Positions 2,793 through 29,305 of a DNA stretch of 29,509 nucleotides are shown one piece after another. This stretch comes from a virus (Duplodnaviria; Heunggongvirae; Uroviricota; Caudoviricetes): the IMG/VR virus record IMGVR_UViG_2718218398_000001, positions 1 to 29,509 of that record. One strand, 5' to 3'. Every line of letters starts with the position of its first letter. Position 1 is the first letter of the stretch. The notes beneath the pieces are model-generated. The model did not search any database. It was not told where the DNA came from and worked only from the letters and a program-made list of their open reading frames with translations. A program made the position numbers and the translations under genes.

Positions 2793-2839
2793 CGTTGCCC
2801 CCAAGAGGATTTATCCTGTTGGGGGGAGTTTGGGCAACG
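2793..2839. terminator. Long imperfect inverted repeat or stem-loop downstream of the dinI-like gene (possible terminator)
   Basis: cgttgccc (2793..2800) pairs with gggcaacg (2832..2839), with inner ccccaa/ttgggg and aggat/atcct pairings. No clean U-tract. Confidence 0.3.
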
Positions 2840-3276
2840 AGTGAAATGAGGTGTAAGGTGGGCGGTCATTTTGATAAGTGATCGTCCACTTTGTGTCAGA
2901 ACCTGATGTTTGTTGTACATTCGGACGAATAGGCGGCGTTGTTTGCTTTAAAAATAAAACAGGAACACTTTGAGAAAGTGAACAGGTGTATTTATTTGTT
3001 GCTGATGAATGAGAGTAACTCTAATTTGGATAATTAGCTTGATAATAGGTCAGACGAAAATAATATTCCAGCACACTTTTGGTCGCAACAGGCATTAGTT
3101 AATTTTAAGTGATAAATTTTTATCCATAAATTAACACTAGTGTGTCATCTAGCGAAACCGAATCGCTTTAACTCATAACTTGAAGTTGAATCAGTGGGGT
3201 AGCAGTAGGCATGCCGGAACTGATAAACTGTGCAGAAGGCTAAACATTCATTCACTCGTGAGATAGTAGCTAAATT

Positions 3277-4143
3277 ATGCAAAGAATTATTCCTGATAAA
3301 AATTGGTGGGAAAAAGAGCGTATTAATCGTAAAGCATCATCAATATGCCCATATGCTAGTTCATACAGATGTCCTCGATACTATCAGAGTGTAGTTTTGC
3401 TCTCAAGCATCAATGTGATAGCTGGTATGGCAACTAGGAAAGAAAAAGAGTTGGGCGAATTTTGGGAAAGAACCACTTTCTCATCTTTATGTGATGAAGA
3501 AGTCCCTACAGTTACTACAAAAGAATATGGCGGCCTTGCATCAGTTAGTAATTTTTGCCCAGAAATATCATTTAGATATTTACACTACTACGCCGATTAT
3601 ATGTGTAAATATGTTGATGAGATAGATCAGGACACTGGCAGGCGTATTGCGGAAAAAGATAATTTAGAAAATGATTGGAAATATACATGGATGTCAGTCA
3701 ATCCTAAATTTTATTTAGATTGCGATGTTTTTGAAAGTGTCAAAAATTTTAATGAAGAATTGGCTAGTGATTACTTAAAAAGATTGCACCCAAATATCGT
3801 TCAGCAAATAGATAGAATGAATAATTGCTTGGATAATAATGATCCGGCAGGTGCACTGCACGCAGCCTCTAATATTTTAGAAACTATGGCTAAGGAAATC
3901 ACTCAAAACCCGAATGTGGCAAATGAGTCATTGGGTGGTTTTTTTAAACAGTTCGAAAAAATGTCAAAATTACCTAAGAATCTTATTGATGCTGTTAAAG
4001 ATATTTATGATTTACGCAACAAATTACCTACTGCTGGACACGGAAGCTTGAACAAGCCTGAATTGACTATGGTAGAAGCTATAACTATTGCGGCAATGAC
4101 AAAGGCGATTTTAGAAATTGAATATCGAAGCAAAGCCATCTAA
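3277..4143 (+). CDS. Hypothetical protein (288 aa) with Cys-rich N-terminus and HEPN/Abi_C-like C-terminal signature
   Basis: Intact ORF in low-GC DNA. N-terminal cysteines (CPYASSYRCPRYY, FCPE, MCKY, LDCD). C-terminal helical region with LRNKLPTAGHG (R at 4015, H at 4039), resembling the RN...HG signature of Abi_C/DUF4145-type HEPN domains. The R-H spacing is longer than canonical Rx4-6H. Confidence 0.5.
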   Translation: MQRIIPDKNWWEKERINRKASSICPYASSYRCPRYYQSVVLLSSINVIAGMATRKEKELGEFWERTTFSSLCDEEVPTVTTKEYGGLASVSNFCPEISFRYLHYYADYMCKYVDEIDQDTGRRIAEKDNLENDWKYTWMSVNPKFYLDCDVFESVKNFNEELASDYLKRLHPNIVQQIDRMNNCLDNNDPAGALHAASNILETMAKEITQNPNVANESLGGFFKQFEKMSKLPKNLIDAVKDIYDLRNKLPTAGHGSLNKPELTMVEAITIAAMTKAILEIEYRSKAI

Positions 4144-4270
4144 CAAACCAAATTATGTGGTTCAAATTCCCGCTACACTTCTGTGTTGCCGCCAGCGTCT
4201 ACTTATCGCTGTGAGTTCAACGGGTGATGATGCGTTAGAGATCTCTGAATCGATTGAAGTCTAAGGTTGT

Positions 4271-4292
4271 CAGGGCTGTAACAGCAGCCCTG
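4271..4292. terminator. Stem-loop between convergent genes (candidate bidirectional terminator)
   Basis: cagggctg (4271..4278), loop taacag, cagccctg (4285..4292). Sits in the 250-bp gap between the 3' ends of 3277..4143 (+) and 4393..5047 (-). Confidence 0.35.
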
Positions 4293-4392
4293 TGTCATGA
4301 ATGGATTGCATATTAATTGACGAAGAACAGACTAATATCATCGATAGCTGTTTTCAAAAATAGACCAATAACAAACTGAGATGTTATCGTAT

Positions 4393-5047
4393 TCATTTCG
4401 ATGATTGATCCAGATGTGTATATAACCATTGAAAGAGTTTTCTAATTTTTGTGATAGTATCTTTTAAATAATTTAAGGAGATTATTATATTATTTTCATT
4501 GTTTAATGAAAGAGTAGGTGTTTTATCAATGATATTTTTTAAGGCTACAGCTGTGCTCATTTTTTTAATGTCTCCATTAGCATGAACTATGCAATTCCTT
4601 ACTTTGTTAAACTCTGTCATGAATTGCCACTCTTGTGACAGGCCAAAGTTTATATCCATTAATTTTGTTAAATATCTTTTTGCTTTGTGGATGCCATCAC
4701 CATTAAAATCGGTTACTGATATATTGGTGTTTACAATCCTTTGACATATATTGCAATAGTCGTTTAGGTTGTGCTCTAAGCATGAGTATAAAGATACCAA
4801 AGCAGATTTATTAAAAAATATTTGGTTGTATGTTAACTAAGAAATCATATTGCTCTGAATAATAGTCTTCTAAGTAATTAATATAATCGTCAGGAGCATT
4901 CTTTTTTTCATCTTCATATGCTTTTTTTAATTCCGCTAAGTCAACTCTGTTTTGGCCGCCTGCTCCTAGGATATATTTTTCGAAATCATCAATCTGCGCT
5001 TCAAGTGAATATCTTGATAGCTGTGCGAAAAGTTTGTATTTACTCAT
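4393..5047 (-). CDS. HEPN-like protein, candidate abortive-infection RNase; split into two ORFs (4811..5047 and 4393..4800) by a 1-nt frame change at an A6/T6 run
   Basis: Minus-strand ORFs of 78 aa and 135 aa are contiguous; the upstream one ends at a TAATAA double stop directly after a T6 run (plus-strand A6 at 4814..4819). Removing one T fuses them into about 215 aa (...NIQPNIF-NKSALVSLYSC...). Canonical HEPN motif R-N-C-I-V-H (Rx4H) encoded at 4582..4599, followed by a predicted helix. Confidence 0.5.
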
Positions 5048-5446
5048 CGGTATGCCATTCCTTTTTAATTATAAACCTTTGGGTTAAAAGGAGCTGAAAA
5101 TAGTAACTCATTATTTTTGTTTGTAAAGGGGGTATTGTTTTTACTAGATCAAGATAAAACAATGGGAATATCCGCTTTTCGCTCACAGCGGACTTTCATC
5201 TTTGTAAACCCGTATGATTAGCTTTTCAGCGGTCATTCAGATACGGATTTACGCTTCCCTTGGCTGTGCATGACTATGACGCATGAGATCGCATGATCGT
5301 TAGAGGATCGTTTTTGCTGAGGCCAGCCAGAACTGGCGTGCTTTTGCTTATGTCGTGCAGGTGCATGAAAACCACTACATAAAGCGGGCAGGCGTGGCGG
5401 GGATACGAGCGCGCGCTTATTACTTTGATAGTACTCGGGTTATAAT

Positions 5447-7129
5447 ATGGATGACTATCTATCTCGGAGAATGTACATGTCATTAGACTATATTAAAGAA
5501 CAGTTGTCAGACTTTATTTCATCTGCAGAACCTGAGGTAATGGCTATTCAGGGTGAGTGGGGGATTGGGAAAACCTATACTTGGAATGCTTTCTTAAAGG
5601 AAAATAAAAATAAGATTGCATTTAATAGATATAGTTACGTCTCTCTTTTTGGTGTTAATTCATTGGACGCATTAAAATACTCCATCTTTGAAAATACAAT
5701 TACGAAAGATTTCATTGGAAACAAACCTAATTTAAAAACAGCAACACAAAATGCAAAGGGGCTTCTTGAATCCTGCACTAGAAAGACCGCTCGTGTGTTA
5801 AAAGATACACCTTTTTTGAAAAATTTCACTACGACACTTGAGTCAATGTCATTTATGTCAATTACTAATGTTATTGTAGTCATAGATGACTTAGAAAGAC
5901 GTGGTAAAAATTTAGAAGTGAAAGATGTCTTAGGGTTGGTTTCTTTATTGAAAGAACAAAAAAATTGTAAGGTGGTTCTTTTACTTAATAACGGGACAAG
6001 TGGTATGGATGACTACTCCACTTATAAAGAAAAGGTTATTGATAGAGAGATTACCTATAATCCTACTCCAGAAGAATGTGCAGTTATAGCATATAAAAAT
6101 AATTCTGATGTTCATAAATTATTAAGCAAATACTCCATTTCCCTGGGTATTAAGAATATTAGGATACTGAAAAAAATAGAGCGGTTTTTGCTAGCCTTGT
6201 TACCTGGCATTAACGTTAATTTTGAAAAAATTGCAAATGAAGTCGCACACTCCTTAACTTTGTATTGTTGGAGTCATTACGCATTTACTCCAGATGGAGA
6301 TGTACCATCATTGGAGTATATTAGAAATATGAGAAATATCTATATGCGTGATGAAAAAGAGGATGGAAAAGAAAAAAAATGGCTTAATACTTTGCTTATA
6401 TATGATTATAAAAAAACAAACGAACTTGATGAAGTCCTTATAGACATGGTAAGGCATGGATATATTGATATGAACAATTTCCAAAGGCAAGTAAGTCTAA
6501 GGAATGATGAACTTATCCGTGATAGTAAGCGAGGTTCACTGTTTGAAGCATGGAAGCTTTTCTATAATTCATTTGAAGATAACCGAAATCAGGTTATTGA
6601 TAATCTATATCAAGCGGTGGTTGGTGGGATAGAGTATGTAACTCCAAGTGACTTGGATAGTGTTGTCGGACTGTATAGAGATTTAGGTGAAAATATTAAA
6701 GCAAGTGAATTAATAAGTAAATTTATTAATTACGGCAATGATGCTCTTAAGGAATATGTTCAATCTATTTACATGAATGTTCATCCTATAAAAGATGCTG
6801 AGTTAAAGTCAAAAATCCAAGATTATTCTACTACTTTAAATCTGGATGGTTCTATAAAGGATGTTCTAATAAAATTATCAAGTCAGAATGGTTGGTCTGA
6901 TAGGCACGAGGAAATATTGGATGCTGCCTCAGAGGATGACTACTATGATTTATTTAAAAAAGTCATTCTTGATGGTGGTGATTCAATAATAGCTACTGCT
7001 CTTAAGTTTGGTGGGTATAGCAATGGTTCAGAAAGAATGAAACGCATCGGAGAAAAAGCGAGAAATGCTTTGATAAGAATTGGAAATGAGTCGAGCATTA
7101 ATAAAATACGTGTTAGACGGTATTTGTAA
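5447..7129 (+). CDS. KAP-family P-loop NTPase (560 aa)
   Basis: Walker A GEWGIGKT (5552..5575). Walker B plus the KAP-characteristic hhhhDDLER/DR motif NVIVVIDDLERR (about 5870..5902). Long alpha-helical C-terminal region. Low-GC codon usage. The true start is more likely ATG 5477 (RBS GGAGA at 5466..5470) than 5447. Confidence 0.7.
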   Translation: MDDYLSRRMYMSLDYIKEQLSDFISSAEPEVMAIQGEWGIGKTYTWNAFLKENKNKIAFNRYSYVSLFGVNSLDALKYSIFENTITKDFIGNKPNLKTATQNAKGLLESCTRKTARVLKDTPFLKNFTTTLESMSFMSITNVIVVIDDLERRGKNLEVKDVLGLVSLLKEQKNCKVVLLLNNGTSGMDDYSTYKEKVIDREITYNPTPEECAVIAYKNNSDVHKLLSKYSISLGIKNIRILKKIERFLLALLPGINVNFEKIANEVAHSLTLYCWSHYAFTPDGDVPSLEYIRNMRNIYMRDEKEDGKEKKWLNTLLIYDYKKTNELDEVLIDMVRHGYIDMNNFQRQVSLRNDELIRDSKRGSLFEAWKLFYNSFEDNRNQVIDNLYQAVVGGIEYVTPSDLDSVVGLYRDLGENIKASELISKFINYGNDALKEYVQSIYMNVHPIKDAELKSKIQDYSTTLNLDGSIKDVLIKLSSQNGWSDRHEEILDAASEDDYYDLFKKVILDGGDSIIATALKFGGYSNGSERMKRIGEKARNALIRIGNESSINKIRVRRYL

Positions 7130-7134
7130 TTTGG

Positions 7135-7152
7135 GGGGGATTTTCATCCCCC
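7135..7152 (+). terminator. Hairpin terminator candidate after the KAP NTPase gene
   Basis: ggggga / ttttca / tccccc stem-loop 6 nt after the stop at 7127..7129, followed by a T-rich stretch (cacattttat). Confidence 0.4.
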
Positions 7153-7163
7153 ACACATTTTAT

Positions 7164-8195: not shown

Positions 8196-9959
8196 AAAAT
8201 CTCCACAATATTGCTGGTATTGGCGGACTCGCCCTGCAGCGGTTCGTTAAACAGTGCGTGCATTGTTGCCCACGCCAGATCGGCATGGCTGGCTTCTTCG
8301 CTGCGGCTGGCTTCATAGGTCGGGCGGTTGCCGCTGGCGGTGGTGGCGCGACGGATTGCCATAAATGACTGCGCTATGTCGGTGTGTCCGGCGTCAAACT
8401 CCAGACGGCGGTGACTGATAATGTCGTAGGCCTTGAGTACCAGGGCATTTTTAACGTTGGGGTTGTAGACAAACTCCCGGACGGCAGGAAAAAACGCTTT
8501 CACGTTCTCGTAAACCCCGTGACCGACGCCGGTTGAGTCGATACCGATGTATGTCACGTTGTACTGTTCAGTCAGTTTTTTGATGGCGTCAGCCTGGGCG
8601 CGGAAGTCCATCCCGCGCCACTGGTGACGCTCAAGAATGCGGAACTTACCGCCCGGCACGGCTGGCGGTGCCACCACCACGCATCCGGCGCTGTCGCCGT
8701 TCTGCGTACCTTTTGCCGGGTCATAACCGATCCACACTTCGCGCCAGCCAAACGGGCGCAGCGCCAGTGCATGAAAGTCGGTCCAGACTTCCCAGCTGTC
8801 CACCATGCACGCCTGTAGTTCGCTGAGCGGGAACACGGACGCGAGATCGTCCACAAACTCGCACATCAGCAGGTTCTGGTATTCGTCCGGGCTGTATTCC
8901 ATGCGCAACTGGTCAAGGTCGAACAGGTTACAGCCACCGCGCACCGCATCTTCCACGGTGACTATCTGGCGGTATTGCCCGTCAGCGCACAGCAGGCCGG
9001 GGGCCAGATTGCTGTGGGACAGATCAATGTCCACCTTGTCGGCTTTGTTGCGTCCACGGTTGAACAGCGCACCGGACCAGAACGGATAAGCACTGTGGGT
9101 CAGGCTGGATGGTGTGGAAAAAATAGGTCTGCCGCCATTTCTTGTGAATAGCCATACCGGAAGCCACTTTGCGTAGCTCCTGAAATTTCGGTATCCAGAA
9201 ATATTCATCCAGATACAGGTTGCCGTGATAACTCTGGGCCGTGCGGGCATTGGTGCCGAGGAAGTAAAGCGTGGCCCCGTTAGGAAGCACCATCGGATCG
9301 CCTTTCAGTTCCACATCCACTTCTTTGGCGAAGTCGATGATGTACTGCTTAAAGACGTGGGCCTGTGCCTTACTGGCGGAAAGGAAAATCTGGTTACGTC
9401 CGGTAAGCAGGGCGTCAATCAGGGCTTCACGGGCAAAGTAAAAGGTCGCGCCGATCTGGCGTGACTTCAGCAGGTTGCGGATGCGGTTGGTTTTTCCGGC
9501 TTCCCACCAGTGGCGCTGGTAGTTGAACATGGAGGAATGGAAGATTTCTTCCAGCTTCTCAATCTGTTCATCGGTGAAGACATTCTTTTCCGGCTGACGG
9601 CGCGGGCCTTTGTTGCGGTTGGCGACGTTAGGGTTTAAGTCAGCTTCGTTGCCGCCATTGTTAAACTTGCCGATCCGCGCGTGGCGCTCAGACTGGCGCG
9701 CCAGCAGGTCAATCTCTTTGAAATCTTTCCCTTCTTTGTGCTCCTTCATAATGAGCTGGCAGTAGCGTGCGGCGGTGGTGAGCTGCATCTGATCCAGCGG
9801 CCCATAGTCACCCCACTTGTCGCGTTTTTTCCAGCTGTGAACGGTTGCAACTTTCTCGCCCAGCATTTCAGCAATGCGGGCGACGCGGTATCCCTGAAAG
9901 TACAGCAGCATGGCCTGCCGACGGGGATCGAGATCTGCGGGTGTCAGTGTGGTGTTCAT
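8192..9959 (-). pseudogene. P: Terminase large (ATPase) subunit gpP, frame-disrupted
   Basis: Two overlapping minus-strand ORFs (9024..9959 and 8192..9250) together span 1768 bp, about 589 aa, the size of P2 gpP. One frame change in the 9024..9250 overlap. Confidence 0.85.
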
Positions 9960-10950: not shown

Positions 10951-12017
10951 ATGAAGAAGAATACCCGTTTTGCTTTTAACGCTTACCTGCAGCAGCTGGC
11001 GCGTCTGAACGGTGTGGCAGTTGAAGAACTGTCCAGCAAGTTCACTGTGGAGCCGTCTGTGCAGCAGACGCTGGAAGACCAGATCCAGCAGTCCGCCGCT
11101 TTCCTGACGCTGATTAACGTCACGCCCAGTGACTGAGCAGTCCGGTCAGCTGCTGGGGCTGGGTGTTGGCAGCACCATTGCCGGAACCACTGATACCACC
11201 GCGAAAGAGCGTGAACCTGTCCGATCCGACGCTGATGGTCGATGTGGAATACAAATGTGAACAGACCAACTTTTGACACGGTGCTGACCTACGCGAAGCT
11301 GGACCTGTGGGCGAAGTTTCAGGATTTCCAGGTGCGTATCCGTGACGGCCATCGTGAAACGTCAGGCACTGGACCGCATCATGATCGGCTTTAAACGGCG
11401 TGAAGCGTGCGAAAACCTCCAACCGTAGTGAAAACCCCGCTGCTGCAGGATGTGAACAAAGGCTGGCTGCAGAAAATCCGTGAGGATGCACCGGATCACG
11501 TCATGGGCAGCACCACCACGGGTGGTGAAACCACACCGGGCGCGGTGAAAGTCGGCAAAGGTGGAGAATATGCCAACCTGGACGCCGTGGTGATGGATGC
11601 TGTCAATGAGCTTATCGACGTGGTCTACCAGGACGATGACGATCTGGTGGTGATTTGCGGTCGTGAGCTGCTGTCTGACAAATATTTCCCGCTGGTCAAC
11701 AAAGAGCAGGAAAACAGTGAAAAACTGGCTGCCGATATGAATCATCAGTCAGAAACGCATGGGTGGCCTGCAGGCCGTGCGTGCGCCGTTCTTCCCGCCG
11801 AATGCGCTGCTGATCACCCCGTCTGGATAACCTGTCCATTTACTGGCAGGAGGACACCCGCCGCCGTTCGGTTATCGACAACCCGAAACGTGACCGGATT
11901 GAAAACTTTGAATCCGTTAACGAAGCCTATGTGGTTGAGGACTACCGCTGCGCAGCACTGGTGGAAAACATCCAGATTGGCGACTTCAGCGCCGCCGCCG
12001 CAGAAGCCGGAGCATAA
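10951..12017 (+). pseudogene. N: Major capsid protein gpN, multiply frame-disrupted
   Basis: N-terminus MKKNTRFAFNAYL...KFTVEPSVQQTL (10951..11136) and a later segment VKVGKGGEYANLDAVVMDAVNELIDVVYQDDDDLVVICGRELLSDKYFPLVNKEQENSEKLAAD match P2 gpN in different frames. At least four frame changes between 11136 and 11880. Stop at 12015..12017. Confidence 0.85.
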
Positions 12018-19794: not shown

Positions 19795-20235
19795 ATGAAA
19801 TATTTGTATGTTGATAATCTGGCGTACCCTTATGCCCTCCAGTCTGTTTACGCTGCAAAAGGCCAATGGCCCGAAGGTAAAGGCGTGGATATAGACGAAG
19901 CTATTTTCAGGGAATATTTCCATGATACGCCGCCTGACGGTAAGTACAGAATTACCGGAGACGATGGAATGCCAGCATGGGCAGATGTTCCACCGCCAAC
20001 ACGTGAAGAACAAATTGCATCAGCCGAAACTAAAAAGCAGCAATTGATTAATCAGGCCAACGATTATATGAACAGTAGACAATGGGCTGGTAAAGCGGCT
20101 ATTGGTCGTCTGAAAGGTGAGGAACTGGCGCAATATAATTTGTGGCTGGATTATCTGGACGCACTGGAGCTGGTCGATACTTCCAGTGCACCAGATATTG
20201 AATGGCCTACTCCTCCGGCAGTTCAGGCCAGATGA
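19795..20235 (+). CDS. Tail fibre assembly chaperone (Tfa, gpG-like), orientation-specific copy
   Basis: 146-aa product with the conserved Tfa C-terminus (...LWLDYLDALELVDTSSAPDIEWP). Immediately follows H. Confidence 0.8.
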   Translation: MKYLYVDNLAYPYALQSVYAAKGQWPEGKGVDIDEAIFREYFHDTPPDGKYRITGDDGMPAWADVPPPTREEQIASAETKKQQLINQANDYMNSRQWAGKAAIGRLKGEELAQYNLWLDYLDALELVDTSSAPDIEWPTPPAVQAR

Positions 20236-20809
20236 CATCCGGCGCGGTGCTGATATCTGTTGCCGTCACCGCGTCAATGTAATCCAGCACAGCGTTAAGC
20301 CGGGTTGTTTCTGCCTGCGTCAGTTTCCGCCCGGCCTGTAATTTCAGTTGAATCAGACTAATGGAAGCCATTGCAGTATCAATCAGTGACTGACGCTGTG
20401 CTTCTGCCGCGTCTACTGCGGCGCGATGCTGTGCCTCAGTATCGGTCACCCATTTCTCACCATCCCATTTATCGTATGGCGTTAATGGGGCGATAGTGGT
20501 TGTATTTTCGGGGTAATCACCCGGAGTTGTGATTTCTTTGGTGTCTCCCGTTTCGGTGTTATAGACGATTTCACCGCGATGGTCTGGCACATATTCCCAT
20601 GAGTTTAAATCTGCCGAACGGCAGATTGCATAACCAGCCTTATGTATACCAGGTTCATCCAGACAGGAATATGCCGGGATACCAACACCAACGGCAAGAT
20701 ATTCATTTGAAGTGGAAATATATTCCCGAGTTTCACCATCATAGCTATAGACGGTAATATTCCCCGCCTTCGTGGCAATAAGCTCGCTATTTAATACAGC
20801 GTTATCCAT
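20207..20809 (-). CDS. Alternative tail fibre assembly chaperone (Tfa') for the inverted orientation
   Basis: 200-aa minus-strand product with a Tfa-type C-terminus (...LNAVLDYIDAVTATDISTAPDVIWPELPEE), converging on and overlapping the plus-strand tfa by 29 bp. Confidence 0.75.
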   Translation of the reverse strand: MDNAVLNSELIATKAGNITVYSYDGETREYISTSNEYLAVGVGIPAYSCLDEPGIHKAGYAICRSADLNSWEYVPDHRGEIVYNTETGDTKEITTPGDYPENTTTIAPLTPYDKWDGEKWVTDTEAQHRAAVDAAEAQRQSLIDTAMASISLIQLKLQAGRKLTQAETTRLNAVLDYIDAVTATDISTAPDVIWPELPEE

Positions 20810-21316
20810 TATGCAGCTCTCACAATATAATTAAATGACGTATTACGTGGTCGTACTGATATCCATGCACTATAAAAACCGTCTTCTGCTGTTCTCTGCG
20901 TTCCCGTAATGGAGTTATCAGACGAAGCTGGAACATAGTTACTGCTGTCGCCAGCTTTAGAATTAGCAGGTATCCCGCTTGTTTGTACTTTATCGGCGGA
21001 AGCAAATGCTATCCCCACCTTGACAGAGGTTGTTGTATCAACCCCGTAATAATCCTGTAACGCTGTACGAATAAAAGTTGCATCCTGACCACTGAGTAGT
21101 GATCGTCCACTGTCTACACCGCGTCCATCATCCCAGCCACGAATAAACTCACCGCGTAAATCAGGCAATTTATTTGTCGGGTAAGCCTTTGCCAGTTCCG
21201 GGTATTCTTCAGCAGAAAAAGCTGCACCATTGCATTTCAACCAGCCTGTCGGTGGTGTAGCTGAAGGCCACGGAACAGGCACACCAACCGGTAATGCTGA
21301 ACCTTCTCCCAAACCA
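20809..21316 (-). CDS. Alternative tail fibre C-terminal (receptor-binding) segment, promoterless, expressed only after inversion
   Basis: The minus-strand ORF encodes ...LGLGEGSALPVGVPVPWP..., sharing the LGLGE junction with H at the crossover site. Its stop overlaps the Tfa' start (TAATG). The six-frame ORF extends to 21357, but sequence beyond the site is outside the segment. Confidence 0.7.
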
Positions 21317-21329
21317 ACGTTTAAGAAAA
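21304..21329. other. Inversion crossover site (hix/gix/cix-like, 26 bp), inverted partner of 19446..19471
   Basis: ttctcccaaacc AA cgtttaagaaaa: the central dinucleotide AA is complementary to the TT of the partner site. Lies just upstream of the invertase gene. Confidence 0.75.
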
Positions 21330-21384
21330 TGCAGAGGTAACAGCTAACTGGCATCATCTCCGGTTTTTATTCAGGGGGATGATC

Positions 21385-21951
21385 ATGCTTATTGGCTATG
21401 TACGCGTGTCAACAAATGACCAGAACACCGATTTGCAACGTAATGCACTGAACTGCGCGGGATGTGAGCGGATTTTTGAGGACAAAATCAGTGGCACTAA
21501 GTCCGACAGACCGGGGCTGAAAAAACTACTCAGGACACTATCGGCAGGAGACACGCTGGTTGTCTGGAAGCTGGACAGGTTGGGGCGCAGTATGCGGCAT
21601 CTTGTTACGCTGATAGAAGAGTTGCGCCAGCGTGGTGTGAATTTCAGAAGCCTGACTGACAGTATTGATACCAGTACCCCAATGGGCCGTTTCTTTTTTC
21701 ATGTCATGGGTGCCCTGGCTGAAATGGAACGCGAACTGATAGTTGAACGTACCAGGGCAGGGCTGGCTGCAGCTCGTGCCAAAGGCAGAGTAGGTGGACG
21801 CCGTCCTAAGTTGACCACCGAACAGTGGGCACAGATTGGGCGTTTACTCGAGGCCGGAGAATCAAGACAGCGTATTGCACTGATTTTTGATGTAGGCGTT
21901 TCTACCATTTATAGAAAATTTCCGGCAAATAAGATCAATGAATCCCCCTGA
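21385..21951 (+). CDS. pin: Serine recombinase, DNA invertase of the Gin/Hin/Cin/Pin family
   Basis: MLIGYVRVSTNDQNTDLQRNAL... is near-identical at the N-terminus to Gin/Cin/Pin, including catalytic Ser in YVRVSTNDQ. C-terminal HTH (GVSTIYRKF). Start is probably ATG 21385; the ORF opens at 21379. Confidence 0.9.
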   Translation: MLIGYVRVSTNDQNTDLQRNALNCAGCERIFEDKISGTKSDRPGLKKLLRTLSAGDTLVVWKLDRLGRSMRHLVTLIEELRQRGVNFRSLTDSIDTSTPMGRFFFHVMGALAEMERELIVERTRAGLAAARAKGRVGGRRPKLTTEQWAQIGRLLEAGESRQRIALIFDVGVSTIYRKFPANKINESP

Positions 21952-22093: not shown

Positions 22094-23267
22094 ATGGCTC
22101 AGGATTACCACCACGGGGTGCGCGTTGTTGAAGTCAACGAAGGCACCCGATCTATTACCACGGTGAGCACCGCCATCGTGGGTATGGTCTGCACGGGCGA
22201 TGATGCCGATGCAAAAATGTTTCCTCTTAATAAACCCGTGCTGATCACTGATGTGCTGACTGCCAGCGGTAAAGCGGGTGAGTCCGGTACTCTGGCCCGT
22301 TCGCTGGATGCCATCGCTGACCAGGCAAAACCCGTGACCATTGTTGTGCGTGTGCCGCAGGGTGAAACGGAAGACGAAACCACGACCAATATCATCGGCG
22401 CAGTGACTGCTGAAGGTAAAAAAACAGGTATGAAAGCCCTGTTATCTGCCCAGTCACAGCTCGGCGTTAAACCGCGCATTCTCGGCGTGCCAGGCCACGA
22501 CACCAAGGCGGTGGCTACTGAGTTGCTGAGCGTGGCGCAAAGCCTGCGTGGATTTGCTTACCTGTCAGCGTATGGCTGCAAGACAGTGCAGGAGGCGATC
22601 ACTTACCGCGAAAACTTCAGCCAGCGCGAAGGGATGCTGATCTGGCCTGACTTTACTGGCTGGGACACGGTGCTGAATGCCGAAGCAACGGCATATGCCA
22701 CCGCTCGTGCGCTTGGTCTGCGCGCCAAAATTGACGAGCAGACCGGATGGCACAAAAGCCTGTCCAACGTGGGCGTGAACGGTGTCACCGGAATTTCTGC
22801 AGATGTGTTCTGGGATCTGCAGGACCCGGCAACCGATGCAGGTCTGCTGAACCAGAACGACGTCACCACGCTTGTGCGTAAAGACGGTTTCCGCTTCTGG
22901 GGTTCCCGCTGCCTGAGTGATGACCCGCTCTTTGCCTTCGAAAACTACACCCGCACGGCGCAGGTGCTGATGGACACGATGGCAGAAGCACACATGTGGG
23001 CGGTGGATAAAACCGCTTAACCCGTCGCTGGCCCGCGACATTATCGAAGGTATCCGCGCCAAAATGCGCAGCCTGGTCAGTCAGGGCTATCTCATTGGTG
23101 GTGATTGCTGGCTGGATGAGTCGGTGAACGACAAAGACACGCTGAAAGCCGGAAAACTCACCATCGACTACGACTACACGCCAGTGCCGCCACTTGAAAA
23201 CCTGATGCTGCGTCAGCGCATCACCGATCAGTACCTGGTGAATTTCGCCAGCCAGGTCAGCGCGTAA
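22094..23267 (+). pseudogene. FI: Tail sheath protein gpFI, one frame change near 23010
   Basis: ORF 22094..23020 (308 aa) plus ORF 23064..23267 in another frame give about 390 aa, matching P2 FI (396 aa). RBS AGGAGG precedes the ATG. Confidence 0.85.
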
Positions 23268-23276
23268 GGGGACAAC

Positions 23277-23792
23277 ATGGCTTTACCACGCAAATTAAAA
23301 CACCTGAACCTGTTTAACGACGGGAACAACTGGCAGGGGATCGTTGAGTCGCTGACGCTGCCGAAATTTACCCGCAAATATGAGAAGTATCGCGGCGGCG
23401 GAATGCCGGGTGCGGTGGATGTGGATCTGGGGCTTGATGACAGTGCGCTGGACACAGAATTTTCCATTGGTGGTACTGAATTGCTGCTGTTTAAACAGAT
23501 GGGTAAAGCCACGGTGGATGGCATCCAGCTGCGCTTTACCGGCTCTATTCAGCGTGACGATACCGGGGAAGTGCAGGCCGTGGAGCTTGTCGTGCGTGGA
23601 CGTCACAAAGAAGTGGATTCCGGCGAGTGGAAGACGGGCGAAAGCAACACCACCAAAGTGACCAGTACCAACAGCTACGCGAAGCTGACCATCAATGGTG
23701 AGGTGCTCTATGAAGTGGACCTTATCAACATGGTGGAAATTGTGGACGGTGTGGACCTGATGGAAGCGCACCGCAACGCCCTCGGCCTCTGA
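23277..23792 (+). CDS. FII: Tail tube protein gpFII
   Basis: 171-aa product directly after FI, the size and order of P2 FII. Confidence 0.85.
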   Translation: MALPRKLKHLNLFNDGNNWQGIVESLTLPKFTRKYEKYRGGGMPGAVDVDLGLDDSALDTEFSIGGTELLLFKQMGKATVDGIQLRFTGSIQRDDTGEVQAVELVVRGRHKEVDSGEWKTGESNTTKVTSTNSYAKLTINGEVLYEVDLINMVEIVDGVDLMEAHRNALGL

Positions 23793-23846
23793 TATATCTG
23801 AACGGCGCGGGATACCGCGCCAGAACCCAATTGACAGGACAGCAAA

Positions 23847-24284
23847 ATGAGCGATAAGCAGACTGAAAAGACCATTCAACTGGATACCCCATCAAGCGCG
23901 GTAAAACAGAAATCACCGAAATTGTGCTGCGTAAACCGCAGTCCGGTGCGCTGCGCGGTACACGCCTGCAGGCCATTATGGATATGGATGTAAACGCGAT
24001 GATGACCGTGATCCCCCGCATCTCCCAGTCCCGGCACTGACTGCACAGGAAATTGCAGAGATGGACCCGGCAGATCTCACTGCCATGTCGGTTGAGGTTG
24101 TCACTTTTTTGTTGAAGAAGTCGGTGCTTGCCGGTTTACCGACAGCCTGACGGTTGACGATCTGGTGGCAGATATCGCCACCATTTTTCACTGGCCGCCA
24201 TCCGTTACTGACGTTATGCCGCTGACCGAAGTGCTGGAATGGCGGTATAAAGCGATTCAGAGAAGCGGGGCCAACGATGAGTGA
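23847..24284 (+). pseudogene. E: Tail assembly chaperone gpE/E' with T6G programmed -1 frameshift site; additionally frame-disrupted near 23890
   Basis: ATG 23847. Conserved slippery heptamer TTTTTTG at 24105..24111 (the P2 E/E' site). The N-terminal frame is broken in a C-run: gataccccatc (C4) needs C5 to read DTPIKRGKTEITEIVLRKPQSG. The E' frame ends at 24282..24284. Confidence 0.7.
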
Positions 24285-27200
24285 TAACAACCTGCGTCTG
24301 CAGGTCATTCTTAATGCGGTTGACAAGCTTACCCGCCCATTTCGATCTGCGCAGGCCAGTTCAAGAGAACTGGCTGCTGCTGTCAAAAAATCCCGCGATG
24401 CAATAAAGCAGCTTGATCAGGCCGGGAGCAGTCTGGACAGCTTCCGAAAGCTGCAGGCAGAAAATCAGAAATTAGGCGACAGGCTGAACTATGCCCGCCA
24501 GCGTGCAAATTTGCTCAGTCAGGAACTGGGAGCGATGGGGCCGCCTTCGCAACGTCAGGTTGTTGCTCTGGGCCGTCAACGGCTGGCTGTTCAGCGCCTG
24601 GAAGAACGCCAGAAAAAGCTGCAGCAGCAGACGGCGCTTGTGCGTGCTGAACTGTACCGGGCGGGAATTTCTGCGAAAGACGATGCGGGAGCAACTGCCC
24701 GTTTAGCCCGTGAAACATCACGTTATAACCAGGAACTTTCGAAACAGGAGGCGCGGCTGAAGCGACTGGGGGAAGCTCAGCGCAGGATGAATGCAGCGCG
24801 TGCCAGTTATGCCCGTTCGCTGGAGGTGCGTGATCGTATTGCAGGTGCCGGAGCCACCACCACGGCTGCAGGGCTGGCAATGGGCGCAACCAGTGATGGC
24901 GGCAGTAAAAAAGCTATACCAGCATGGAAGATGCCATGAAAGGTGTGGCAAAGCAGGTCAATGGTCTGCGTGACGATAATGGCAACCGCACTGCACGTTT
25001 TTATGAAATGCAGGATGCCATCAAGGCTGCCAGCCGAACAGTTGCCGATGGAAAACGGTGCGGTGGATTTCGCTGCACTGGTTGAAGGTGGTGCGCGCAT
25101 GAACGTCGCAAACCCTGACGACAGTTGGGAAGATCAGAAACGTGACCTGCTGGCCTTCGCCAGTACGGCAGCAAAGGCGGCAACAGCCTTTGAGCTGCCA
25201 GCGGATGAACTGTCAGAAAGTCTGGGGAAAATCGCCCAGCTCTACAAAATCCCCACCCGCAATATTGAACAGCTCGGCGATGCGCTGAACTATCTGGATG
25301 ATAACGCCATGTCGAAAGGGGCAGACATCATTGATGTGATGCAACGTCTGGGCGGTGTGGCTGACCGTCTGGATTATCGTAAAGCGGCGGCGCTGGGTTC
25401 CACCTTCCTGACACTGGGCGCTGCGCCAGAGGTTGCAGCCAGTGCAGCAAACGCGATGGTGCGTGAATTGTCCATTGCCACCATGCAAAGCAAGAGTTTC
25501 TTTGAAGGGATGAATCTGCTGAAACTCAATCCTGAAGTGATTGAAAAGCAGATGACGAAGGATGCGATGGGAACCATCCAGCGCGTGCTGGAGAAGGTAA
25601 ACGCGCTGCCGCAGGACAAGCGCCTGTCTGCCCATGACTATGTTGTTTGGTAAAGAGTTTGGCGATGAATGCGGCGAAACTGGCAAACAACCTGCCGGAA
25701 CTGCAGCGTCAGTTAAAACTGACAGCGGGCAATGATGCGCTCGGCTCCATGCAGAAAGAATCCGACATTAACAAGGATTCACTTTCTGCGCAGTGGTTGC
25801 TGGTCAAAACCGGAGCGCAGAACACCTTCAGCAGTCTGGGCGAAACGCTGCGCCAGCCGCTGATGGATATTCTGTACACGGTGAAAAGCGTCACGGGGGC
25901 GTTGCCGTCGCTGGGTGGAAGCTAACCCGGAACTGACAGGCACACTGATGAAAGCAATCGGCTGTTGTGGCTGCGGTTACCGTCGGCCTAGGCACCTTAG
26001 CGGTGGCGATGGCTGCAGTGCTGGGGCCGCTGGCAGTGATCCGTCCTGGGATTCTCTGTGCTGGGTATCAAAACGTTACCTTCCGTTATGGCAGCAGTAA
26101 CTCGAACCAGCAACGCGTTGTCCCTGGTTGGCTGGCGCTCCACTGGCACTGCTGCGACGCGGGCTTGCTTCATCGGGCAACGCCGCAGGTTTACTTACTG
26201 CGCCGTTGTCGTCTTTGCGCCCGCACGGCATCACTGACGGGAAATGTCCTGAAAACTGTAAGCAGGTGCGCCAGTTGCACTTTTGCGGTCTGGATTATCC
26301 GGTTTTACGTGCTGTTGCTGTGATGTTTATGAATCCTCTGGCGGTACTGCGCGGTGGACTGGCCGCCGCAGGCACGGTGCTGCGAGTACTGGCATCTGGT
26401 CCACTGGCGATGCTGCGCGTTGCCCTGTATGCCATATCTGGGTCTGTTAGGTGCTCTGCTCAGTCCGATAGGTCCTTGTGGTTACTGCACTGGCGGGCGT
26501 GGCGCTGGTTTGTCTGGAAATACTGGCAACCCATCACCGCATTTCTCGGTGGCGTGGTGGAAGGATTCAAAGCGGCGGCAGGTCCATCAGTGCAGCGTTC
26601 GAACCGCTTAAGCCCGTGTTCCAGTGGATTGGCGACAAAGTGCAGGCGCTGTGGGGGCTGGTTTACTGATCTGCTGACGCCCGTTAAGTCGACCTCTGCC
26701 GAACTGCAGAGCGCAGCGGCAATGGGGCGGCGATTCGGGGAGGCACTGGCGGAAGGGCTGAATATGGTCATGCATCCGCTGGACTCCCTGAAATCCGGCG
26801 TTTCCTGGTTGCTGGAGAAGCTCGGCATTGTCAGTAAAGAGGCCGCAAAGGCAAAACTGCCGGAAAGCGTGACGCGTCAGCAACCTGCGACGGTGAATGC
26901 AGACGGTAAAGTGATGATGCCATCGGGTGGTTTTCCATCATGGGGATATGGCTTTGCGGGGATGTATGACAGCGGCGGGTATATCCCGCGCGGGCAGTTT
27001 GGCATCGTCGGTGAAAACGGACCGGAAATTGTTAACGGCCCGGCAAATGTGACCAGCCGGAGAAATACAGCTGCACTGGCTGCCGTTGTTGCCGGAATGA
27101 TGGGCGTTGCTGCCGCGCCAGCAGAGCTTCCACCGTTGCACCCTTGGCACTTCCCGCGAAAGGTGGAGAAGCAATTGTGAGTCGCGCAGCCACTGTGCCG

Positions 27201-27368
27201 CTCGTTCAACGGATTGAGGCACCGACGCAGATCATCATTCAGACGCAGCCAGGACAAAGTGCGCAGGATATTGCGCGGGAGGTGGCACGCCAGCTTGATG
27301 AACGTGAACGCAGGCTGAAGGCAAAAGCCAGGAGTAACTACAGCGATCAGGGGGGATACGACGCATGA
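24277..27368 (+). pseudogene. T: Tail tape measure protein gpT, multiply frame-disrupted
   Basis: ATG 24277 overlaps the E' end. Coiled-coil N-terminus and hydrophobic/Gly-Ala-rich internal repeats (PLALLRRGLASSGNAAGLL; NPLAVLRGGLAAAGTVL) spread over ORFs 24277..24939, 24943..25653, 25647..25925, 26128..27180 and 27144..27368. Stop overlaps the U start. Confidence 0.8.
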
Positions 27369-27850
27369 TGATGGTGCTGGGATTGTACGTGTTTATGCTG
27401 CGCACCGTTCCGTATCAGGAACTGCAGTATCAACGCAGCTGGCGACATGCGGCAAACAGTCGGGTAAACCGACGTCCGTCCACGCAGTTTCTGGGACCGG
27501 AAAACGACATGCTGACGCTTTCCGGTGTTCTTATGCCGGAAATAACAGGCGGCAGGCTGTCGTTGCTGGCACTGGAGCAGATGGCAGAACAGGGGAAAGC
27601 ATGGCCCCTGATTGAAGGCAGCGGCACGATTTACGGCATGTATGTGATTGAGGGACTGAATCAGACTAAAACGGAGTTTTTCCGCGACGGTATGCCGCGC
27701 CGGATTGAGTTCACCCTGTCGCTCAAACGAGTGGATGAATCCCTGTCCGATATGTTCGGTGATCTCAGTGCGCAACTGAATAATCTGCAGGACACGGCAA
27801 CGTCTGCCTTAAGCGATATCAGTAAAACGGTGGGAGGGCTGCTGTCGTGA
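27365..27850 (+). CDS. U: Tail protein gpU
   Basis: MMMVLGLYVFMLRTVPYQ...AWPLIEGSGTIYGMYVI...RRIEFTLSLKRVDESL is collinear with P2 gpU (MMLALGMFVFM...RAWPLLDGTGMIYGMYVI...). Confidence 0.85.
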   Translation: MMMVLGLYVFMLRTVPYQELQYQRSWRHAANSRVNRRPSTQFLGPENDMLTLSGVLMPEITGGRLSLLALEQMAEQGKAWPLIEGSGTIYGMYVIEGLNQTKTEFFRDGMPRRIEFTLSLKRVDESLSDMFGDLSAQLNNLQDTATSALSDISKTVGGLLS

Positions 27851-28566
27851 ATTTCAGCTCTGAACTGCTTAACAAAGGCAACAAAACTCCCGCATTCAGC
27901 ATCAGTATTGAGGGCAGGGATATCACCACTGTGCTGGATAACCGCCTGATGAGTTTGACGCTGACGGATAACCGGGGCTTTGAAGCGGACCAGCTTGATC
28001 TGGAGCTGGATGACGCTGACGGAAAAATCGTGCTGCCGCGCCGTGGTGCGGTTATTACGCTGGCGCTGGGCTGGAAGGGGCAGCCGCTTTTCCCGAAAGG
28101 GGCATTCACAGTGGACGAGATTGAACACACTGGCGCACCGGACCGCCTGACTATCCGGGCGCGAAGTGCTGATTTTAGGGAAACGCTGAATACCCGCCGT
28201 GAAAAATCGTGGCACAAGACCACTGTCGGGAAGTGGTGAAGGAAATAGCCGCGCGTCATAAGCTGAAGATGGCACTGGGTAAAGACCTGTCGGATAAGCC
28301 CGTGAGCATATAGACCAGACTAATGAGAGTGACGGCAGTTTTCTGATGCGGCTGGCGCGCCAGTACGGTGCCATCGCGTCGGTGAAAAATGGCAATCTGT
28401 TATTCATCCGGCAGGGACAGGGCAAAAGCGCCAGCGGTAAACCACTGCCGGTGATCTCAATCACACGTAAGGACGGCGACAGTCACCGCTTTACCCTGGC
28501 AGATCGCGGAGCCTACACGGGCGTAATTGCCAGCTGGTTGCATACCCGCGAACCCGCGAAGAAAGA
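27847..28566 (+). pseudogene. D: Tail protein gpD (late control gene D), frame-disrupted and 3'-truncated
   Basis: GTG 27847. The N-terminal 130 aa and the segment 28346..28560 (RLARQYGAIASVKNGNLLFIRQG...) match gpD in different frames. Homology stops at about 28560, roughly 240 of the expected ~387 codons. Confidence 0.7.
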
Positions 28567-29305
28567 AAGCACACGGATTATCCCAGCTATCTGGTTGCGG
28601 ATATTAATCCTGATTTAATCAACCTCTATAAAAAGGTTGCCGCTGATTGTGAATCGTTTATATCTCGCGCCAGAGTTTTATTTTAAGGAAGCAAACAGGG
28701 AGGTGGCTTATTACAACATAAGGCAGGAGTTTAATTACTCAACTGAAATTACTGATTTCATGAAAGCGGTATATTTCCTGTATCTCAATCGTCACGGTTA
28801 CCGTGGGTTATGTCGCTATAACAAGAGCGGGCATTTCAACATTCCCTACGGTAATTATAAAAATCCGTATTTCCCTGAAAAAGAAATTTGCGCATTTGCA
28901 GAGAAAGCCCAACGAGCAACGTTTATCTGCGCCAGCTTTGATGAAACGCTGGCGATGTTGAAGGCGGGGGATGTGGTGTATTGCGATCCGCCGTATGACG
29001 GTACGTTTTCCAGCTATCACACTGATGGTTTCACTGAAGATGACCAGTATCACCTGGCATCCGTTCTTGAACATCGGTCATCAGAAGGACATCCGGTCAT
29101 TGTTTCTAACAGTGACACATCCCTGATCCGTTCGCTGTATCGCAATTTTACTCACCACTACATCAAGGCAAAACGCAGCATCGGCGTAGCAGCTGGTGAG
29201 AGTTCTGCAACAGAAATCATCGCTGTTTTCTGGGGCGCGCTGCTGGGTGGATTTGATCCTTCGCGTGGCGTGGATAGTTCTGCCGTGTACGGAGTACGTG
29301 CATGA
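28567..29305 (+). pseudogene. dam: DNA adenine methyltransferase (Dam family) fragment, 5'-truncated and frame-disrupted
   Basis: TDYPSYLVADINPDLINLYKK (from about 28567) aligns to E. coli Dam NTDFSRYILADINSDLISLY, i.e. about 45 N-terminal residues including the SAM-binding FxGxG motif are missing. Downstream has [18 protein letters not shown] and catalytic DPPY (VYCDPPYDG). Frame changes near 28670 and near the 3' end. Confidence 0.75.

What the first reader, a model, noticed from the sequence alone, without database searches (positions are those of the whole stretch)
4393..5047. HEPN-motif gene split by a single-base change in an A6/T6 homopolymer
Two adjacent minus-strand ORFs become one roughly 215-aa protein if the T6 run (plus-strand A6 at 4814..4819) is T5. 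The fused protein carries a canonical Rx4H HEPN motif (RNCIVH at 4582..4599). A homopolymer in a toxin-like RNase gene could be a sequencing indel, an inactivating mutation that detoxifies the locus, or a phase-variable on/off switch.
Basis: seen in the sequence. Interest (0 to 1): 0.6.

Follow-up and report, generated by a model that had tools for sequence, protein, structure and literature searches.

The report
Sequencing-error frameshift in prophage HEPN gene
The "split" toxin-like gene is almost certainly one intact 217-residue HEPN gene carried as cargo by a P2-like prophage. The extra base that breaks it is one of about fifty homopolymer-length errors spread through this error-rich contig, so the split is ordinary and not a genetic switch.

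Summary
RNCIVH lies at 4582..4599.

The split is most likely an artefact:
- All 15 independent copies I could find have A5 and an intact gene (8 complete E. coli genomes, 4 IMG/VR contigs, 3 metagenome contigs).
- The fused protein is 100% identical to a protein seen on 263 contigs. The two truncated products are on record nowhere.
- Against its closest relative (~99.3% identity) the window carries 52 one-base indels. Most are extra bases in homopolymers, and the rate rises with run length, reaching 5% of 5-mers.
- These indels break the terminase, capsid, sheath, tape measure, gpA and gpD genes. Finished-genome pairs show 0-4 such indels.

The gene is stand-alone cargo in the P2 gpA–portal hotspot. 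It is already listed there as "hypothetical" and has not been tested. It is probably a solo-HEPN abortive-infection RNase. Interest is low.

The parts
4393..5047 (-). Single gene for a 217-aa stand-alone HEPN protein (identical to WP_000049685.1 / P0001 once the run is A5). In the window it is read as two ORFs.
   Evidence: It is annotated as one 654-nt CDS in all 8 complete E. coli genomes that carry it.
4813..4818 (.). A6 run (T6 on the coding strand). It is one base longer than in every other copy and causes the apparent frameshift at codons F78/N79.
   Evidence: indel at window 4813 against L001 and L002. One search shows A5 in 8 of 8 genomes. Searches show A5 in 7 of 7 further contigs.
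4811..5047 (-). Upstream ORF fragment (78 aa), equal to residues 1-78 of the real protein.
   Evidence: No gene with exactly this product is on record in 153 billion gene positions.
4393..4800 (-). Downstream ORF fragment (135 aa from a TTG), equal to residues 83-217 of the real protein.
   Evidence: The exact product is not on record. The break lies in the middle of predicted helix 53-105.
4582..4599 (-). RNCIVH, the Rx4H HEPN catalytic motif (R150, N151, H155).
   Evidence: by direct reading. R150 and H155 are invariant and N151 is at least 90% conserved in 66 relatives at 21-35% identity. The PADLOC RTasHEPN match covers residues 122-164.
2800..7160 (.). Context: the AT-rich cargo hotspot of a P2-like prophage, between gpA/DinI-like and portal gpQ. 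GC is 0.35 here against 0.54 for the backbone. It also holds a 288-aa Abi_C-like gene (3277..4143 +) and a 560-aa KAP P-loop NTPase (5447..7129 +).
   Evidence: The hotspot is described in PMC9122126.

Best explanation
The locus is one intact gene for a 217-aa stand-alone HEPN-domain protein. It belongs to a divergent branch near the RiboL-PSP-HEPN family (Abi2/AbiD/AbiF clade). It is AT-rich cargo in the gpA–gpQ anti-phage hotspot of a P2-like prophage. The extra A/T at 4813..4818 that splits it is a homopolymer-length sequencing or assembly error, one of about 50 such errors in this contig. What is shown: the split depends on one base; every other copy has A5; the window has a run-length-dependent, insertion-biased indel excess that breaks essential phage genes; the protein has an invariant RNxxxH motif and a HEPN-like helical fold; orthologues are solo genes on prophages and an ICE. 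What is inferred: the protein dimerises to build a composite Rx4H RNase site, stays inactive until a superinfecting phage triggers it, then cleaves cellular or phage RNA and aborts the infection. This is the way the solo HEPN protein HepS works (PMC13043305) and the way proposed for AbiD/AbiF.
For: Artefact:
- Window against its closest relative L003 (99.3-99.4% identity): 52 one-base indels in 26.7 kb, 39 of them extra bases in the window and 47 in runs of at least 2. Finished-genome pairs at higher divergence show 0-4.
- The fraction of runs with a changed length rises steadily with run length: 0.09%, 0.39%, 0.75%, 2.2%, 5.1% for runs of 1 to 5.
- The same A5-to-A6 change breaks the terminase gene at 9118 and the tape-measure gene at 24907.
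- Dam, gpA, terminase P and M, scaffold O, capsid N, sheath FI, gpE, tape measure T and gpD are all frame-broken in the window but intact in L003.
- The intact gene has 8 runs of at least 5 bases, so an error hit in it is unsurprising.
- A5 is found in 15 of 15 other copies.
- The fused protein equals P0001, seen on 263 contigs. The truncated products are absent from the gene index.
- Pseudogenes of defence genes are reported to be rare in P2 hotspots (PMC13586616).

Single gene:
- 3,982 cluster representatives match at E <= 1e-3. Nearly all of the best 150 listed are 200-250 aa and match as one stretch across the junction.
- The residues NIFNKS across the junction are at least 90% conserved.
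- The AlphaFold2 model (pLDDT 87.9) puts the junction inside one helix, residues 53-105.

HEPN:
- R150 and H155 are invariant.
- PADLOC RTasHEPN matches at E = 1.1e-5.
- 12 of 66 relatives hit PF18735 HEPN_RiboL-PSP, best E = 3e-7.

Solo cargo:
- Orthologues sit alone at a lambdoid prophage end (Salmonella), in the P2-like G/FI slot (Morganella), and in an ICE (Pantoea).
Confidence: 0.85

Rival explanations
1. The A6 allele is genuine: a real frameshift inactivated (detoxified) the HEPN gene in this particular prophage copy.
For: Homopolymers are natural indel hotspots. HEPN RNases can be toxic, so loss-of-function alleles are plausible. The immediate neighbourhood of 4813 has few other indels. 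The contig also lacks the ogr-att-int-C region, which could mean a defective element.
Against: None of 15 other copies has A6. The truncated products are not on record anywhere. The window's indel spectrum is insertion-biased, depends on run length, and sometimes reaches 8 indels in 700 bp, with only about 0.5% substitutions. That is an error signature, not natural decay. Defence pseudogenes are rare in P2 hotspots.
Confidence: 0.1
2. The run is a phase-variable on/off switch, or a programmed +1 frameshift site (UUU UAA), that regulates production of the full-length toxin.
For: Restoring the frame needs a +1 shift. tRNA-Phe could re-pair on U UUU next to a stop codon, which formally resembles the prfB site (direct reading; established knowledge of RF2 frameshifting).
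Against: There is no tract-length polymorphism in 15 other copies. The wild-type tract is only 5, below the roughly 7-8 or more typical of contingency loci (established knowledge). The tract is T3 in the Salmonella, Morganella and Pantoea orthologues. No Shine-Dalgarno-like stimulator lies upstream, and the stop is UAA-U, a strong terminator context (reading; established knowledge). All homologues are in-frame single ORFs.
Confidence: 0.03
3. The two ORFs are really two genes, for example a small antitoxin upstream of a HEPN toxin.
For: The two ORFs are adjacent, on the same strand and separated by 10 nt, which superficially resembles a toxin-antitoxin layout.
Against: The downstream ORF has only a TTG start. 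Homologues are one polypeptide across at least 3,982 clusters. The junction residues are conserved in one frame. The model shows a continuous helix 53-105 across the break. RefSeq annotates one CDS in 8 genomes.
Confidence: 0.01

Closest known systems
RiboL-PSP-HEPN family (Pfam PF18735; Anantharaman et al. 2013, PMC3710099; Abi2/AbiD/AbiF-related clade)
   Same: Conserved Rx4H motif with N after the R and an all-helical HEPN fold. 12 of 66 relatives match PF18735. UniRef names close relatives "RiboL-PSP-HEPN domain-containing protein".
   Different: The window protein itself gives no PF18735 hit at E <= 1. It has no fusion to an endoRNase L-PSP domain and no ParB operon. It is a solo gene of about 217 aa, with an 80-100-residue helical N-terminal extension, on prophages and an ICE.
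HepS, solo HEPN abortive-infection protein of the Gifsy-1 prophage (PMC13043305; PDB 9oik)
   Different: No detectable sequence relationship: profile searches of the PDB gave no HepS hit at E <= 10. The motif is at R150-H155 here and at R100-H105 in HepS. The trigger (siphovirus tail tip) and target (tRNA anticodon loops) are known for HepS and unknown here.
P2 gpA–gpQ anti-phage hotspot cargo (old/tin locus; Rousset et al. 2022, PMC9122126)
   Same: The position is the same, between gpA/DinI-like and portal gpQ. WP_000049685 and WP_001404037 appear in that paper's Table S5 arrangements.
   Different: It is listed there only as "hypothetical" and was not among the systems tested. The tested "Putative HEPN" (pFR103) has a different sequence.
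Homopolymer indel errors of error-prone sequencing and unpolished assemblies
   Same: One-base length changes, an excess of insertions, probability rising with run length, and many broken conserved genes.
   Different: The platform is unknown and no reads are available to confirm it.

Membership tests
HEPN superfamily | Conserved Rx4-6H catalytic motif | tested here: met
   R150-x4-H155 is invariant, and N151 is at least 90% conserved, in 66 relatives at 21-35% identity.
HEPN superfamily | All-alpha, four-helix up-and-down core fold | tested here: met
HEPN superfamily | Metal-independent RNase activity that depends on R and H | not testable with these tools
   Needs biochemistry with R150A and H155A mutants.
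Pfam PF18735 HEPN_RiboL-PSP | Match to the family profile at the curated threshold | tested here: not met
   The protein itself has no hit at E <= 1. 12 of 66 distant relatives match at E <= 0.01, best 3e-7. It is therefore a neighbouring, divergent branch, not a demonstrated member.
Pfam PF18735 HEPN_RiboL-PSP | Fusion to endoRNase L-PSP, or an operon with ParB (Anantharaman 2013) | tested here: not met
   It is a solo gene in all contexts examined.
Phase-variable contingency locus | Tract length varies among strains or copies | tested here: not met
   A5 in 15 of 15 other copies.
Phase-variable contingency locus | Long, conserved simple-sequence tract | tested here: not met
   The wild-type tract is 5 nt. 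It is T3 in orthologues from three other genera.
Programmed +1 ribosomal frameshift (prfB-like) | The out-of-frame arrangement is conserved in homologues | tested here: not met
   All homologues are single in-frame ORFs.
HepS-like solo HEPN Abi | Sequence homology to HepS | tested here: not met
   Profile searches of all PDB chains gave no HepS hit at E <= 10. HepS is present in the fold library used as 9oik.
HepS-like solo HEPN Abi | Stand-alone prophage gene without a partner or immunity gene | tested here: met
   There is no conserved neighbour across the Salmonella, Morganella, Pantoea and E. coli contexts.
HepS-like solo HEPN Abi | Anti-phage abortive-infection phenotype | not testable with these tools
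   Needs plaque assays.
Two-gene toxin-antitoxin | Homologues occur as two separate genes | tested here: not met

The most novel reading that the evidence does not exclude
The A6 allele is genuine and reversible. This lysogen carries an "off" copy of a solo HEPN toxin or defence gene. Slippage on the T5/T6 run, or low-level +1 frameshifting at UUU-UAA, turns it back on, which would make this a homopolymer-gated prophage abortive-infection gene. Separately and more plausibly, the intact family (at least 3,982 clusters) may be an uncharacterised HepS-like single-gene defence.
Probability: 0.04. Interest if true: 0.45.

Novelty: not a real feature. Interest (0 to 1): 0.1.

Why it matters
The frameshift matters mainly as a warning. 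This contig carries about two homopolymer indels per kb in places, so any apparent pseudogene, split gene or "switch" in it should be distrusted until the reads are checked. The underlying gene is of modest interest. It belongs to a large, widely mobile family of 217-aa stand-alone HEPN proteins that sits in known anti-phage hotspots. It has been catalogued but never tested, and it could be a further example of the solo-HEPN abortive-infection strategy recently shown for HepS.

Tried and rejected
- Pfam, NCBIfam and PHROGs scans of the fused protein found no real family hit.
- Profile searches of PDB sequences found nothing relevant.
- Foldseek against the PDB found nothing significant. The afdb50 library was unavailable. 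BFVD gave one uncharacterised Myoviridae protein.
- A megablast of the locus against the phage collection found no match.
- Exact look-ups of the two truncated products, made to locate the source contig or other split copies, found neither on record.
- A pattern scan of genome contigs found no match. That collection holds only one genome per species.
- I tested whether the 288-aa neighbour and the HEPN gene form a conserved pair, and rejected it. Orthologues of each occur without the other. The convergent 213-aa gene next to the Pectobacterium orthologue is unrelated.
- I checked whether Rousset's tested "Putative HEPN" (pFR103) is this protein. It is not.
- The promoter and terminator scan around the gene did no better than shuffles for promoters, so I make no claim from it.

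Full report
**1. Observation**

On the minus strand, ORF 4811..5047 (78 aa, ATG start) ends ...AAT ATT TTT TAA. ORF 4393..4800 (135 aa, TTG start) follows 10 nt later in another frame. Removing one T from the T6 gives a single 217-aa ORF that reads ...QPNIFNKSALVSLYS.... RNCIVH is at 4582..4599, exactly as stated.

**2. Context**

The window is a P2-like prophage genome of E. coli type. It holds dam, gpA, a DinI-like gene, then cargo, then portal Q, terminase P, the capsid and tail genes and gpD. The gene sits in the AT-rich cargo block between gpA/DinI-like and gpQ, where GC is 0.35 against 0.54 for the backbone. This is the old/tin hotspot of anti-phage systems described by Rousset et al. 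2022 (PMC9122126).

The cargo is mosaic. A 288-aa gene plus this gene are shared with 8 complete E. coli genomes, where they lie next to an AAA ATPase and an HNH gene (L001, L002). The 560-aa KAP NTPase and everything downstream match a different prophage, L003.

**3. Is the frameshift real?**

Comparative evidence:
- All 8 complete E. coli genomes with the locus have A5 and an annotated 654-nt CDS, WP_000049685.1 or WP_001404037.1.
- A pattern scan that allowed A4-A8 found 4 IMG/VR contigs and 3 metagenome contigs, all with A5.
- The fused protein is 100% identical to P0001, which is seen on 263 contigs.
- No gene giving exactly the 78-aa or the 135-aa product is on record in 153 billion gene positions.

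Error signature of the window:
- Against its closest relative (L003, 99.3-99.4% identity) the window has 52 one-base indels in 26.7 kb. Of these, 39 are extra bases in the window and 47 lie in runs of at least 2.
- Three pairs of finished genomes at 4-5% divergence show 0-4 such indels.
- The share of reference runs whose length differs in the window climbs with run length:

| Run length in reference | Share changed in window |
|---|---|
| 1 | 0.09% |
| 2 | 0.39% |
| 3 | 0.75% |
| 4 | 2.2% |
| 5 | 5.1% |

- The same A5-to-A6 change hits the terminase gene at 9118 and the tape-measure gene at 24907.
- Dam, gpA, terminase P and M, scaffold O, capsid N, sheath FI, gpE, tape measure T and gpD are all frame-broken in the window, while L003's annotated CDSs are intact.
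- The intact HEPN gene is 30% GC and has eight runs of at least 5 bases. At about 5% per run, an error in it is unsurprising.
- Independently, pseudogenes of defence genes are reported to be rare in P2 hotspots (PMC13586616).

I conclude, at about 85-90%, that the split is a homopolymer sequencing or assembly error. The main caveat is that no reads are available. Also, 4813 is the only indel between roughly 2.5 and 9 kb, so the local error density is low.

**4. Switch or recoding?**

The tract does not vary among 15 other copies. Its wild-type length of 5 is short for a contingency locus. In the Salmonella, Morganella and Pantoea orthologues the same codons give T3.

A +1 shift at UUU-UAA is formally possible. 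However, there is no upstream Shine-Dalgarno-like stimulator, the stop context UAA-U is a strong terminator (reading; established knowledge), and no homologue needs recoding. I reject both ideas.

**5. One gene or two?**

A full HMMER scan with a 15-sequence profile found 3,982 cluster representatives at E <= 1e-3 and 1,714 at E <= 1e-10. Nearly all of the best 150 listed are 200-250 aa and match in one stretch across the junction. The residues N-I-F-N-K-S across the junction are at least 90% conserved. The AlphaFold2 model (pLDDT 87.9, pTM 0.81) places the junction inside one long helix, residues 53-105. It is one gene. By inference, the 135-aa fragment would lack half of a core helix.

**6. 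Is it HEPN?**

Evidence against or neutral:
- The protein itself has no Pfam, NCBIfam or PHROG family.
- Foldseek against the PDB found nothing significant.
- No solved structure is a sequence relative.

Evidence for:
- It hits the PADLOC RTasHEPN model at E = 1.1e-5 over residues 122-164.
- In 66 relatives at 21-35% identity the only invariant residues are W140, R150 and H155. N151, G158 and E91 are at least 90% conserved.
- 12 of those 66 match PF18735 HEPN_RiboL-PSP, best E = 3e-7.
- UniRef names close relatives RiboL-PSP-HEPN.

Anantharaman et al. 2013 describe Ribo L-PSP-HEPN as having a conserved motif and being distantly related to AbiD and AbiF (PMC3710099). I file the protein as a HEPN-superfamily member on a branch next to PF18735, not as a demonstrated PF18735 member.

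**7. How it probably works**

Orthologues are stand-alone cargo with no shared neighbour:
- at the end of a lambdoid prophage in Salmonella diarizonae;
- between G and FI of a P2-like prophage in Morganella;
- inside an ICE in Pantoea.

The 288-aa neighbour (weak Abi_C hit) also travels independently. Its orthologues lie next to DUF4145 genes, a Gabija-like pair or integrase islands. The convergent gene beside the Pectobacterium copy is unrelated to this family.

The most likely mechanism is therefore a self-contained, normally latent HEPN RNase. A superinfecting phage would activate it, it would cleave RNA, and the infection would abort. This has been demonstrated for the unrelated-in-sequence solo HEPN protein HepS of Gifsy-1, which is a tetramer triggered by tail-tip protein and acting as a tRNA anticodon nuclease (PMC13043305). 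Everything beyond motif, fold and gene context is inference.

**8. Known or new?**

Rousset et al.'s Table S5 already lists WP_000049685 and WP_001404037 among P2-hotspot arrangements, as "hypothetical". Their tested "Putative HEPN" is a different protein, and no paper in the library cites these accessions. The gene is catalogued but uncharacterised.

**9. Verdict**

This is an ordinary artefact lying over an ordinary, if untested, solo-HEPN prophage cargo gene. Interest 0.1.

Noticed in passing
window-wide, e.g. 170, 193, 970, 2446, 9118, 10282, 11125-11817, 12621, 23009-28573: There are about 52 one-base, mostly insertion-type homopolymer indels relative to the closest finished genome. They break dam, gpA, terminase P and M, scaffold, capsid, sheath, gpE, tape measure and gpD. 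Stretch 12.7-20.7 kb is clean. Any pseudogene-like feature in this contig is suspect.
   Followed up: yes
window 28573..28579 and the 29509/1 boundary: The window is circularly permuted: 29509 to 1 is contiguous inside gpA. gpD (about aa 245) is joined directly to dam (about aa 42) through a 4-bp microhomology (ACGG). The ogr/att/int/C/cox early region (roughly 6 kb in L003) is therefore absent. This is either a deletion derivative or a chimeric or over-circularised assembly.
   Followed up: partly
window 3277..4143 (+): An intact 288-aa protein lies convergent to the HEPN gene. It has a weak C-terminal Abi_C (HEPN-clan) match (E = 0.0017) and the motif DLRNKLPTAGHG. It belongs to a conserved gammaproteobacterial family found in other defence-island contexts (next to DUF4145, a Gabija-like pair, phage tail modules) and is not linked to the 217-aa family outside E. 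coli.
   Followed up: partly
window 5447..7129 (+): A 560-aa KAP-family P-loop NTPase (Pfam KAP_NTPase 1.3e-8; PADLOC candidate PDC-S49 2.2e-25; phrog_4740 7.7e-145). It appears to be the second cargo module of the hotspot and is shared with a different set of prophages than the HEPN gene.
   Followed up: partly
window 4200..4376 and 5167..5299: Short stretches flanking the HEPN gene match hundreds of E. coli genomes that lack the gene (645 further records, about 95% identity). Homology to the two donor prophage types overlaps at 5267..5417. These look like conserved linkers at which hotspot cassettes are swapped.
   Followed up: no
window ~1812 (gpA): L002 carries three extra copies of a GGACTC hexamer (18 bp, in frame) at this point in the replication endonuclease gene. 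This is a small tandem-repeat length polymorphism in gpA.
   Followed up: no
window 19795..21951: The tail-fibre and tail-fibre-assembly region has oppositely oriented assembly genes and an adjacent recombinase (21379..21951), typical of an invertible host-range segment. The 182-aa ORF at 20809..21357 (-) has no match above 80% to L003's corresponding tail protein.
   Followed up: no
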